A stretch of DNA of 64,000 nt from Escherichia coli (GTDB taxonomy: Bacteria; Pseudomonadota; Gammaproteobacteria; Enterobacterales; Enterobacteriaceae). The stretch is taken from the NCBI RefSeq assembly GCF_050320075.1, contig NZ_CP190019.1. One strand, given 5' to 3'. The position numbers are program-made. Below, piece after piece: positions 6,001-9,000 of this stretch. Position 1 is the stretch's first letter. The number at the start of each line of letters is the position of its first letter.

Positions 6001-9000
6001 CGCTTTTGCAGTAGCTCGTGGATGACGCGCTCGACCGGTTCCGGCAAGCGCCCCTTACCTTTACCTCCACCGGACTGGCCGGGCACCAGATCCGTCACGA
6101 GGCCGCTGCCTTGCCGGGCACGCCGGATCAGAACGTATACCTGGCGCCGAGACAAGCCCAGCGCCTGAGCCGCCATATCGGCCGCTTCGTGCCCGACCGT
6201 CTCCGACTGCGCCAACGGACTGATGATCTCCGCACGACGGCGCGCACGCTCCCAAGCCTCATCAGGCAGAGTGGCCACGCCTTGTTCTGGAATCCGTGGG
6301 GTGTCCGTCGCCATGCTCACCTCGCTTTGGTGCACACGAGTATTGAGCATAGTCGAGATTGGTGCAGATCACTTCTGATATTGAACTGTCAGGAGCTGGC
6401 TGCACAACAGCCATTACGCCCAATCAACTGGTGCAGTCGTCTTCTGAAAATGACACGCAGCGTGGCCATTCCTGACATCCAGTTAGGGTATGCCTTAAAT
6501 TGACGCTCCGACATGAGTTGTGTATTAGATATAACTTATTGTAGTATTTGTAACATTAATCATCTTTTTGACGAAGGAGCCCGTGCTTGAGCTTTCTTGC
6601 CCTATTCGTCAGCCTGCCCACCAAGGCATCGACCGGCCGCATGCGCGTCTGGCGTTCTGTCAAAGCGCAGGGCTGCGCAACGCTGCGCGACGGGGTCTAT
6701 CTGCTGCCCGACTCGGCGGACAGTGCGGCGACGCTGGGCGAAGTTGTGGGAGGAAAATAAAGTGTCATCCTAACTACAGGACCCTGCAACGTAGCAATTC
6801 CTGCAAAAATCCATTTAAAACAATGACTTATTTCAATTCTGCCATCTGCAAGCGTTTTGTGGGGATGGAGGCCGGAATCATTAAAGTATCATCCTAATTT
6901 TCGCTCAACCTTGGAAAATGCTGAGAATCGTAAAAATAAAGTTTCATCCTTTCCGCTACTAGTTCAAGGCTTTCTTCCGGCCGCCGGCAACAACGCTGCT
7001 TGGCTGAGGCGATCCACTTGCGCTACCGCTCACTGATCAGATCGAACTTGAACTCGACGAGCAGCCAACCATCAGGCCGAGCGTGATCGCCAAAAAAAAC
7101 GGATCATGCGAAATCCTTCGTTGAGTTTGGCGCGGGTTTTAGCAAATCAGCTGGCCCGCGATCCGGTTGAGAGTGATCCGAAGCGGTCCTTGACGACCGG
7201 CACAAATCGGCCGATTCTGTTGAAAAAGTAGCTTTAGCGGCAGCCTGCCGATCAGGTGTGCCTGCTGTCGAAGTGGCTGCAAGCCACTTCAAGTTGCCTT
7301 CCGGCGTTTCACTGAGCGTCCTTGCTCAGGTTTAAGGGTTAATTTGAGGGTTTCTGCTCGTAGCAGGCATACCTATCCCGTCAGCGGTGGCCCTTGAGGC
7401 AAAAGCTTGGCCATGCGGCGCAGGTTCTGCACCATCGCAGCCAAGGTGAATTCGTCAGTGGCACCCGTTAGGCCACGCAGTCGTAAACGGTCGAGTTTCA
7501 TGATCCGTTTGAGGTGGGCGAAAAGCATCTCCACCTTCTTTCGTTCGCAGCGAGAGACGAGGTACTCCGGTGTCTTGGCGATGCGTCGAGCCACGTCGCG
7601 GGCAGCCTCATGGATGCTGCGGACGATCTTCCGATTCGGCGTGTTGGGGCAGCATTTCGCTTTCAACGGGCAGGTGGCGCAGTCGGTTTGGCTGGAGCGG
7701 TAAATGACGGTTTTGGCCTTAGTTACCCGCGACCTTTGCTGGGTGAAGGCGCGCCATTCACTGCGTAGCGGTTTGCCGGCTGGGCAGCGATATTCATTGG
7801 CGTCCTGACTCCAGTGAAAGTCGTTACTGGAGAGGCTGTCGTCCTTGCGCTCGGTCTTGTCCCACACCGGCACATGCGGTTCGATGTCCTTTTCTTCGAC
7901 CATCCAGGCCAGCATCGGGGCGGTGCCATAAGCGGTATCGCCGATAAGGCGTTCCGGTGTGAGATCGAACTGCGCCTCGACACGCTCGACCATCGTCCTA
8001 GTCGAATCGACTTCGGCGGTACGGTGCGCCGGGGTAGCTTCCACGTCCATGATCACACCGTGCTCAGTGTCGATCAGGTAATTCGTGGAGTAGGCAAAAA
8101 AGGCCGGGCCACCTGGCGCTGCTGTCCAACGGGACTGAGGATCAGTGAGCGAAATTTTCTTGGGAAGAGCCTCAGCCAGCGCCTCTTCATCAAGGGCTTC
8201 GAGGTACTCGCGCACTGCGCGGCTGCTGAGCTTTGGATCGTTCCAATCGACCTCATCTCCCGCCACCCCACGTTGCCGGCTGGCATCCGCCTTAATGATG
8301 CTGGCGTCGACGGCGAAACCTTCACCCTTGACTAGGCCGGCTGCCATGCAGCGCCGCAGCACCTCATTGAATAACCAGCGGAATAGATCGCTGTCACGAA
8401 AACGCCCATGGCGATTCTTCGAGAAGGTCGAGTGATTGGGGACTTCGTCTTCCAGACCCAACCGGCAGAACCAGCGATAGGCCAGGTTCAGGTGCACCTC
8501 TTCGCACAATCGCCGCTCGGAACGAATGCCATAGCAAGTAGCCGACGACCAGCATGCGCACCATCAACTCCGGGTCAATCGAGGGACGCCCGATGGGGCT
8601 ATAGAAATCTGCCAGGTAGGCACGTAGATCACTGAGATCCAAGCACTGGTCGATGCTGCGCAGGAGATGTTGGGCCGGGACGTGATCTTCCAGATTGAAC
8701 GAGTAGAACAGGCGCTGCTGTCCTCCCGGTAACTGTCCCATCATGCTGTTCGCCCCCACGCTCGCTGACAAAGCAATTTTGCCAACGGCATGGGGAGGCC
8801 GCTACTTTTTCAACAGAATCGGCCGCACACAGCCATTCGGCTCAACAGAACCCTGCCTTTACCCCACCAAACTCCGGAAACTCGCCCGGTAGTCCGTCGG
8901 CTTGAGATGCACATGTTGGCTGAGGTCGCCGGGTAGCGTGAACAGGCGCGGACCGTCCCGAAACTGGAACACGCGATACAGATGGAATTGATCGCCCGCC

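What the first reader, a model, noticed from the sequence alone, without database searches (positions are those of the whole stretch)
7208..8825. IS5-superfamily element with 25-bp IRs and a transposase split across two frames, abutting the DUF3883 gene
The transposase is carried on two overlapping ORFs (116-bp overlap). This could be an inactivating frameshift or a programmed frameshift as in some IS5-group members. The element ends 33 bp from the stop of the DUF3883 gene and may have delivered or truncated the neighbouring cassette.
Basis: seen in the sequence. Interest (0 to 1): 0.35.

Follow-up and report, generated by a model that had tools for sequence, protein, structure and literature searches.

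The report
Frameshifted copy of known ISCfr1
This is a copy of the already named insertion sequence ISCfr1 whose transposase gene is broken by one extra base; it rides passively inside a well-known gentamicin-resistance module, so it is ordinary.

Summary
Window 7208-8825 is bounded by perfect 25-nt complementary ends. It carries a transposase split into two ORFs that overlap by 116 bp, and it ends 33 bp from the DUF3883 stop codon.

The element is ISCfr1 (IS1182 family, a relative of IS5). It sits at the same insertion site as the copy in pCTX-M3 of Citrobacter freundii (presumed, from memory, to be the reference copy), within the published aacC2(aac(3)-IId)-tmrB module.

The split has a single cause: one extra base at window 8536/8537. 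In mRNA sense, TAC-TGC-TAT became TAC-TTGC-TAT. The intact allele (1617 bp, one 456-aa ORF) is otherwise identical, and three relatives 93-95% identical also lack the extra base.

The shift needed to restore the frame is +1. It falls in the middle of the DUF772 domain. There is no slippery heptamer, no homopolymer longer than 4, and no unusual downstream RNA structure.

The broken allele is real and old. An 81-bp probe matches it exactly in 245 plasmid records, it is linked to two SNPs in the DUF3883 gene, and RefSeq marks it 'frameshifted'.

Every ISCfr1 copy sampled sits at this one site, 463 bp inside the left end of a Tn6411-type Tn7-like transposon. ISCfr1 did not deliver the cassette, and the DUF3883 gene is not truncated.

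Verdict: a known element with an inactivating frameshift; low interest.

The parts
7208..8825 (-). ISCfr1 (IS1182 family) as delimited by the 25-nt complementary ends; 1618-bp frameshifted allele
   Evidence: IRs. It is 100% identical to copies that RefSeq annotates 'IS1182-like element ISCfr1 family transposase, frameshifted'.
7213..8820 (-). Probable element proper, with 20-bp IRs (GATTCTGTTGAAAAAGTAGC)
   Evidence: Inference from ISCfr1-free target copies that retain CGGCC or CGGTC, from the GACC direct repeats around ISPsp5, and from the 4-bp direct repeat reported for the IS1182-family member ISPse1 (PMC3281130).
7209..7212 (.). GGCC, left copy of the probable 4-bp target site duplication
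8821..8824 (.). GGCC, right copy of the probable 4-bp target site duplication
8394..8771 (-). ORF A: N-terminal transposase fragment. The annotated start of the intact gene corresponds to ATG 8744. Residues after the frameshift are out of frame.
   Evidence: It matches NF033551 profile positions 6-68 only.
7373..8509 (-). ORF B: the remainder of the transposase (second half of DUF772 plus the DDE domain), in the +1 frame relative to ORF A
8536..8537 (-). The frameshift mutation: one extra A in an AA pair on the + strand (an extra T in mRNA sense, so TAC-TGC-TAT became TAC-TTGC-TAT; codons GYCYG)
   Evidence: It is the only difference from the intact allele across the whole element.
8859..9995 (-). 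DUF3883 (NOV_C) gene, 378 aa as annotated in RefSeq (WP_000080860.1); not truncated by the IS
   Evidence: The longest ORF (8859-10172) is listed.
6745..7207 (+). Left-end segment of a Tn6411-type Tn7-like transposon (terminal TGTGGGAGG, three AAAGTNTCATCC repeats), in which ISCfr1 sits
4243..5063 (-). IS26 copy on the left of the segment
13216..14035 (-). IS26 copy on the right of the segment (after aac(3)-IId and a truncated IS10)

Best explanation
Window 7208-8825 is a copy of the named insertion sequence ISCfr1 (IS1182 family). A single-base insertion at 8536/8537 has inactivated its one transposase gene and split the 456-aa ORF into two overlapping ORFs. The copy is a pseudogenised passenger. 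It descends from one ancient ISCfr1 insertion 463 bp inside the left end of a Tn6411-type Tn7-like transposon that carries DUF3883-orf-orf-tmrB-aac(3)-IId. Since then it has spread only by hitch-hiking, through Tn7-like transposition, IS26-mediated rearrangements and plasmid transfer. The identity, the mutation, its distribution and the shared insertion site are shown directly. Loss of transposase activity and the 4-bp GGCC target duplication are inferred.
For: 1) Identity. The element is 100% identical over 1618 bp to many plasmid copies. RefSeq names it ISCfr1 and flags it 'frameshifted'.
2) The mutation. The intact 1617-bp allele (WP_000971921.1, 456 aa) differs only by lacking one base at 8536. 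pCTX-M3 carries the intact allele at the same site.
3) Ancestral state. The outgroups ISPsp5 (pADP-1) and the Aeromonas and P. aeruginosa relatives, 93-95% identical, lack the extra base and have 456-aa ORFs.
4) Position in the protein. The break falls inside the DUF772 domain: ORF A matches profile 1-28 and ORF B matches 28-74. It lies in the conserved GYCYGIRSERRL stretch.
5) No recoding signals. The shift required is +1. The 173-nt window in which a shift could rescue the frame (8566-8394) has no X XXY YYZ heptamer and no run longer than 4. The downstream RNA fold has z = +0.61.
6) A real allele. An 81-bp probe matches it exactly in 245 plasmid records from Escherichia, Acinetobacter, Pseudomonas, Proteus and Providencia, against 536 records at 95-99% identity, mostly the intact allele. 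It is linked to SNPs 9617T and 9755C.
7) One insertion site. The same left junction is present in 640 of 703 records and the same right junction in 733 records. Hits to the IS half alone were only the 92-96% relatives.
8) Published context. The module aacC2-tmrB-orf192-orf228-orf1182-ISCfr1 and its presence in Tn6411 are already described (PMC7096625; PMC11232968).
Against: No experiment here shows that the 1618-bp allele is transposition-dead. Programmed frameshifting has been shown experimentally in another cluster of IS1182-family (DUF772) transposases (PMC3711429). The broken allele is frequent, at about one third of plasmid copies, which on its face could suggest it is tolerated or useful. 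The junction counts come from summary statistics and sampled rows, not from an exhaustive list, so a few ISCfr1 copies at other sites could have been missed.
Confidence: 0.93

Rival explanations
1. The two-ORF arrangement is a programmed (+1) recoding site. Ribosomes or RNA polymerase would slip at or near the extra base and produce a full-length, active transposase at a low, regulated level, as in IS1, IS3 and some IS5 and IS1182 members.
For: Programmed frameshifting of up to 24% was measured for a DUF772/IS1182-family cluster (PMC3711429). The allele is common, with 245 plasmid records. CUA, the codon after UUG, is a rare codon in E. coli (established knowledge), and a rare codon could cause a pause.
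Against: The validated IS1182 examples use A-rich slippery tracts such as GGA_AAA_AAG and CTA_AAA_AAA_AGA; nothing comparable exists here. tRNA re-pairing after a +1 slip from UAC or UUG is not possible (inference from the sequence). A shift anywhere other than at the extra base would garble conserved DUF772 residues. The break lies within a domain, not between domains. The identical element without the extra base, and all relatives examined, have one ORF. There is no downstream structure. No copy of this allele was seen at a new site.
Confidence: 0.02
2. The extra base is a sequencing or assembly error in this window, and the real element is intact.
For: Single-base indels are a typical error type, and the difference is a single base.
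Against: The extra base lies in an AA dinucleotide, not in a long homopolymer. The exact allele occurs in 245 independent plasmid records from many laboratories and genera. It is linked to two SNPs 1.1-1.2 kb away.
Confidence: 0.02
3. The frameshifted allele has been co-opted. The roughly 116-aa ORF A product (first half of DUF772 plus an out-of-frame tail), or ORF B alone, would act as a regulator or inhibitor of related transposases, or as a trans-complemented partner. This would explain why the allele persists.
For: Truncated N-terminal transposase products act as inhibitors in IS1 and IS911 (established knowledge). The allele is frequent.
Against: Persistence is fully explained by hitch-hiking with aac(3)-IId under aminoglycoside selection. 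The intact and broken alleles sit at the same site in the same module. Many plasmids have lost part or all of the IS through IS26 deletions without apparent cost. ORF A ends in the middle of the domain.
Confidence: 0.03

Closest known systems
ISCfr1 of pCTX-M3 (Citrobacter freundii, NC_004464.2); presumed from memory to be the reference copy, ISfinder not consulted
   Same: The sequence is identical apart from one base. The flanks are the same on both sides, and so are the neighbours (DUF3883, tmrB-like ATPase, aac(3)-IId). It is the same insertion event.
   Different: The window copy has one extra base at 8536/8537, giving 1618 bp against 1617 bp and two ORFs instead of one 456-aa ORF. It also carries linked SNPs at 9617 and 9755 in the adjacent gene.
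ISPsp5 (pADP-1) and the IS1182-family elements next to tnfxB-tmexCD in Aeromonas and Pseudomonas plasmids
   Same: They are 93-95% identical in nucleotide sequence, with the same 20-bp terminal repeats and a 456-aa transposase.
   Different: They sit at other insertion sites and have an intact ORF. ISPsp5 is flanked by GACC direct repeats rather than GGCC.
The aacC2-tmrB region / Tn6411 (Tn7-like) described in the resistance-plasmid literature
   Same: The gene order aac(3)-IId, tmrB, orf192, orf228, orf1182 (DUF3883), ISCfr1 matches (PMC7096625, PMC6737455, PMC11232968).
   Different: In the window only the left-end part of the Tn7-like element is present. It is bounded by IS26 and a truncated IS10, with no tns genes and no right end.
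IS1182-family 'DUF772 cluster' with experimentally confirmed programmed frameshifting (Antonov et al. 2013, PMC3711429)
   Same: It belongs to the same transposase family and also shows a two-ORF annotation.
   Different: Those elements shift at A-rich slippery tracts. Here there is no such tract, the shift needed is +1, and the split is a recent single-base insertion that is absent from the sister allele.

Membership tests
IS1182 family | Transposase matches the family model above its curated cutoff | tested here: met
   NF033551 scores 439 bits (cutoff 270) for the intact allele. ORF B alone scores 344.5 bits, and ORF A covers profile positions 6-68. Pfam finds DUF772 plus DDE_Tnp_1_6.
IS1182 family | Terminal inverted repeats | tested here: met
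   The ends are complementary over 25 nt, of which about 20 nt are probably the true IR.
IS1182 family | Short target site duplication (4 bp reported for ISPse1, PMC3281130) | tested here: inconclusive
   GGCC lies on both sides, and the native target retains CGGCC or CGGTC. ISPsp5 is flanked by GACC on both sides. However, the right flank is not contiguous with the ISCfr1-free target copies, and no empty right flank was found.
IS1182 family | Single transposase ORF | tested here: not met
   This copy has two ORFs because of a 1-bp insertion. The sister allele and the relatives have one ORF. This is a defect of this copy, not a reason to exclude it from the family.
ISCfr1 (named element) | Near-identity to the pCTX-M3 copy (presumed reference copy) | tested here: met
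   1617 of 1618 positions are identical to the copy in pCTX-M3, NC_004464.2. RefSeq uses the name ISCfr1.
ISCfr1 (named element) | Match to the ISfinder reference entry (length, IR and DR as curated) | not testable with these tools
   ISfinder is not available here.
IS with programmed frameshift (IS1/IS3 type, IS5/IS427 group, IS1182 DUF772 cluster) | Slippery motif (A AAA AAG-like heptamer or poly-A tract) in the ORF overlap | tested here: not met
   There is no X XXY YYZ heptamer. The longest runs are CCCC and TTTT within the 173-nt permissive window.
IS with programmed frameshift (IS1/IS3 type, IS5/IS427 group, IS1182 DUF772 cluster) | Stimulatory downstream RNA structure | tested here: not met
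   MFE is -34.4 kcal/mol against a shuffle mean of -36.6; z = +0.61.
IS with programmed frameshift (IS1/IS3 type, IS5/IS427 group, IS1182 DUF772 cluster) | Two-ORF organisation conserved among close relatives | tested here: not met
   The intact ISCfr1 allele and three relatives all have one 456-aa ORF.
IS5 family | Transposase matches an IS5 family model above its cutoff | tested here: inconclusive
   NF033581 (IS5_4) scores 147.8 bits against a cutoff of 140 for the intact protein, far below the IS1182 score. The other IS5 models fall below their cutoffs. The element is related to IS5 but better filed as IS1182.

The most novel reading that the evidence does not exclude
The frequent 1618-bp allele might not be dead. 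Either a low level of +1 recoding at the non-canonical site UAC-UUG-CUA (with rare CUA in the A site) restores full-length transposase, or the truncated N-terminal product regulates related IS1182 elements. The 'pseudogene' would then be a functional variant maintained in about one third of ISCfr1-bearing plasmids.
Probability: 0.03. Interest if true: 0.35.

Novelty: already known. Interest (0 to 1): 0.08.

Why it matters
It matters little. The element is a named IS in a well-described resistance module, and RefSeq already flags the frameshift. Three modest by-products are useful.

First, the extra base together with two linked SNPs gives a simple lineage marker. It separates the Tn6411/IS26-dispersed haplotype of the aac(3)-IId module from the IncL/M (pCTX-M3) haplotype.

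Second, every ISCfr1 copy sampled in clinical plasmids traces to a single insertion. ISCfr1 should therefore not be counted as an active mobiliser in plasmid mobilome surveys.

Third, the 463 bp to the left of ISCfr1 is the left terminus of a Tn7-like transposon. This suggests that the 'aacC2-tmrB region' in Tn2 came from a Tn6411-type element, not the other way round.

Tried and rejected
Programmed frameshifting was rejected. There is no slippery motif and no downstream structure. Relatives have one ORF. The split falls within a domain.

Sequencing error was rejected. 245 independent records carry the exact allele, and it is linked to SNPs.

ISCfr1 as the vehicle of the cassette was rejected. 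The window holds a single copy, and the module is bounded by IS26 copies and a Tn7-like end.

Truncation of DUF3883 by the IS was rejected. The NOV_C domain is complete (profile 1-90 of 91), the gene has its own stop codon, and the flank from 8825 through the gene is still present in a plasmid where ISCfr1 is absent (that copy of the protein is a different accession, WP_000080861.1).

The search for an empty site gave partial results. Joining the two flanks as a query found no plasmid with an uninterrupted site. A genome-contig scan with the left flank found two ISCfr1-free copies of the left segment (L010, L011). These fix the left target sequence but continue differently from the window's right flank. 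A metagenome scan with the right flank found one contig, which carries ISCfr1.

The Tn21-type IR that abuts position 8825 in NZ_CP138774.1 was examined and remains unexplained.

An apparent shared boundary at 12419 between the window (IS10) and L001 (ISAba14) turned out not to be shared: L001 continues for about 42 bp before ISAba14.

Full report
OBSERVATION.
- Window 7208-7232 and 8801-8825 are perfectly complementary 25-nt arms, 1568 nt apart.
- On the minus strand, ORF 8394-8771 and ORF 7373-8509 overlap by 116 bp.
- The DUF3883 ORF has its stop codon at 8859-8861, which is 33 bp from 8825.
- Pfam places the first 28 positions of the DUF772 transposase domain on ORF A. Positions 28-74, plus DDE_Tnp_1_6 and DDE_Tnp_1, fall on ORF B. 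One transposase is therefore cut in the middle of a domain.

WHAT IT IS. The 1618 bp are 100% identical to many plasmid copies. In PLSDB, 818 records match and 751 of them are at least 99% identical. In complete E. coli assemblies, 328 of 5426 genomes match. RefSeq names the gene 'IS1182-like element ISCfr1 family transposase'. In records carrying the 1618-bp form it is flagged as a pseudogene, 'frameshifted'. The intact protein scores 439 bits on NCBIfam NF033551 (IS1182 family, cutoff 270). It only just passes one IS5 model, at 148 bits against a cutoff of 140. 'IS5-superfamily' is therefore loosely right, and IS1182 family is the precise assignment.

THE FRAMESHIFT. A second allele of 1617 bp encodes one 456-aa protein (WP_000971921.1) and is present in many plasmids, including pCTX-M3 of Citrobacter freundii, which I presume (from memory; ISfinder not consulted) to be the host of the reference copy.
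- Across the whole element the two alleles differ at one position only: an extra A in the AA pair at window 8536/8537. In mRNA sense, GGC TAC TGC TAT GGC (G-Y-C-Y-G) becomes GGC TAC TTG CTA TGG.
- Three relatives 93-95% identical all lack the extra base and have 456-aa ORFs: ISPsp5 of pADP-1, and the elements next to tnfxB-tmexC in an Aeromonas and a P. aeruginosa plasmid. The intact state is therefore ancestral.
- ORF B lies in the +1 frame relative to ORF A.
- A frame change could join the two ORFs anywhere within the 173 nt from 8566 to 8394. This stretch has no X XXY YYZ heptamer, and its longest homopolymers are CCCC and TTTT.
- The 116 nt around and downstream of the site fold no better than shuffled sequence, with z = +0.61.
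- A shift anywhere other than at the inserted base would scramble the conserved YGIRSERRLCEEV stretch of DUF772.

Programmed frameshifting does exist in another cluster of IS1182-family transposases. There it uses A-rich tracts such as GGA_AAA_AAG and CTA_AAA_AAA_AGA (PMC3711429). Nothing like that is present here. I conclude that this is an inactivating 1-bp insertion. The mutation is shown directly; loss of activity is inferred.

IT IS A REAL, OLD ALLELE. An 81-bp probe centred on the site matches exactly in 245 plasmid records from Escherichia, Acinetobacter, Pseudomonas, Proteus and Providencia. It matches with one gap or a few differences in 536 records, mostly the intact allele. The frameshift is linked to two SNPs in the neighbouring DUF3883 gene. 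The window, L001 and L009 have 9617T and 9755C, whereas pCTX-M3 has 9617G and 9755T. This excludes a sequencing error and points to a single origin.

ONE INSERTION, MANY COPIES. Probes of 200 bp across each junction show the identical left junction in 640 of 703 matching plasmids and the identical right junction in 733 plasmids. Among the sampled rows, the hits covering only the IS half were the 92-96% relatives from Pseudomonas, Shewanella and Aeromonas. The pCTX-M3 copy is at this very site. So the intact and broken alleles both descend from one insertion event, and I saw no evidence that ISCfr1 proper has moved since. Many plasmids have lost part or all of it through IS26. One recurrent cut is at window 8894, which also removes the last 11 codons of DUF3883.

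CONTEXT. The segment shared by all contexts starts at window 6745 with TGTGGGAGGAAAATAAAGTGTCATCC. Two more AAAGTNTCATCC repeats follow, at 6883-6894 and 6938-6949.
- In E. coli plasmid NZ_CP029123.1 the same end is paired with a matching right end: TGTGGGATGCAAATAAAGTTTCATCC, with three repeats, beside tnsA-tnsB-tnsC. The element splits tniB and is flanked by a 5-bp GTTGC duplication. Position 6745 is therefore the left terminus of a Tn7-like transposon of the published Tn6411 type (PMC11232968).
- ISCfr1 lies 463 bp inside that terminus. DUF3883, two small ORFs, a tmrB-like ATPase and aac(3)-IId follow it. This is the published module 'aacC2-tmrB-orf192-orf228-orf1182-ISCfr1' (PMC7096625; PMC6737455).
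- The window has only this left-end fragment. No right end and no tns genes are present.
- On the left it is preceded by IS26, a tniA fragment, a 25-nt inverted repeat that I read (from memory) as the IRt end of a Tn402-type integron, and a stub of an ORF whose N-terminus looks ChrB-like to me (not scanned against any library). On the right it is followed by a truncated IS10 and IS26.
- The cassette is thus moved by IS26 and, historically, by the Tn7-like element, not by ISCfr1. The DUF3883 gene is whole: NOV_C profile 1-90 of 91, with its own stop codon.

BOUNDARIES OF THE IS. Two ISCfr1-free copies of the left-end segment were found, in a Halioglobus MAG contig and in P. mendocina EF27. They read ...CACAAATCGGCCAAAAGCGGACGAT and ...CACAAATCGGTCAGAAGCGGTCGAT. 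The CGGCC at 7208-7212 is therefore native target sequence. ISPsp5 is flanked by direct GACC repeats, and the IS1182-family member ISPse1 makes 4-bp duplications (PMC3281130). The simplest reading is a 4-bp GGCC duplication which, being palindromic, makes the 20-bp IRs look like 25 bp.

The window's right flank (GCACACAGCC...) is not what follows GGCC in the two ISCfr1-free copies. No ISCfr1-free right flank was found. I therefore cannot tell whether the IS inserted simply into a different cargo junction or later caused an adjacent deletion.

COMPARISON AND NOVELTY. This is ISCfr1, an already named element, in an already described module, with a defect that RefSeq already annotates. It is not a member of the programmed-frameshift class: three defining features were tested and none was met. 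Novelty is 'already known' and interest is low.

The residual novel reading is a functional two-ORF allele, through non-canonical +1 recoding or a regulatory truncated product. I put this at about 3%.

One side observation may be worth a note in the resistance-plasmid literature. The boundary between Tn2 and the 'aacC2-tmrB region' in IncL/M plasmids is exactly the Tn7-like left terminus. This suggests the module came from a Tn6411-type element that landed in Tn2, the reverse of the direction stated in PMC7096625 and PMC11232968.

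Noticed in passing
window 6745-7207 (also L008 466-930 and 11140-11205; L002 7538): Window 6745 is the left terminus of a Tn6411-type Tn7-like transposon, with TGTGGGAGG and three AAAGTNTCATCC repeats. In NZ_CP029123.1 the complete element splits tniB with a 5-bp GTTGC duplication. The same terminus abuts Tn2 just upstream of blaTEM-1 in IncL/M plasmids. The published 'aacC2-tmrB region derived from Tn2' therefore looks like the left-end part of a Tn7-like element that inserted into Tn2, the reverse of the published direction.
   Followed up: partly
window 7209-7212 and 8821-8824: GGCC on both sides of ISCfr1 is probably a palindromic 4-bp target duplication that makes the IRs look 25 bp instead of 20 bp. 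ISCfr1-free targets (L010 5840-5846, L011 about 1618) retain CGGCC or CGGTC, and ISPsp5 has direct GACC repeats.
   Followed up: partly
window 8825 onward; L003 2980-3010 (NZ_CP138774.1): In one K. pneumoniae tmexCD1 plasmid, a Tn21/Tn5393-type terminal IR (GGGGGCACCTCAGAAAACGG, itself carrying IS4321) abuts exactly the nucleotide where ISCfr1 plus GGCC ends. No ISCfr1 remnant lies nearby. Whether this is coincidence or a real segment boundary is unresolved.
   Followed up: partly
window 9617, 9755, 10081: The aac(3)-IId module has two haplotypes. One has the frameshifted ISCfr1 with 9617T and 9755C; the other has the intact ISCfr1 with 9617G and 9755T (pCTX-M3). The window has a private SNP, 10081T, where every other copy examined has A.
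   Followed up: yes
window 8894: This is a recurrent IS26 breakpoint inside the DUF3883 gene. It removes ISCfr1 and the last 11 codons of the gene, and is seen in pK245 and, judging from sampled rows, some hundreds of other plasmids.
   Followed up: partly
window 12420-13215: A truncated IS10 is inserted about 10 bp upstream of the longest aac(3)-IId ORF (TTG 12409) and is itself cut by IS26 at about 13216. It begins with the end sequence CTGATGAATCCCCTAATGATTTTGG and retains the first ~230 residues of its ORF.
   Followed up: no
window 2383-3204, 4243-5063, 13216-14035, 25216-26035, 30819-31639, 32914-33733, 37544-38366: At least seven IS26 copies lie in the 64-kb window. It is an IS26-rich multiresistance region of an IncF-type Enterobacterales plasmid, and also carries mph(A), aph(3')-Ia, blaTEM-1 and other resistance genes.
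   Followed up: no
window 5046-6455 and 6587-6744: A tniA fragment cut by IS26 is followed by a 25-nt repeat at about 6428-6452 that I read, from memory, as the IRt end of a Tn402-type class 1 integron. After it comes a 52-codon stub of an ORF (MSFLALFVSLPTKAS...) whose N-terminus looks ChrB-like to me (not scanned against any library) and which is interrupted by the Tn7-like left end at 6745.
   Followed up: no
L010 (PABK01000044.1, Halioglobus MAG) 5377-5858; L011 (P. mendocina EF27): The Tn7-like left-end segment occurs without ISCfr1 and with different cargo in a marine MAG contig and in P. mendocina. The two agree for only about 13 nt past the ISCfr1 target and then diverge, so the junction between the conserved end and the variable cargo lies right there.
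   Followed up: partly
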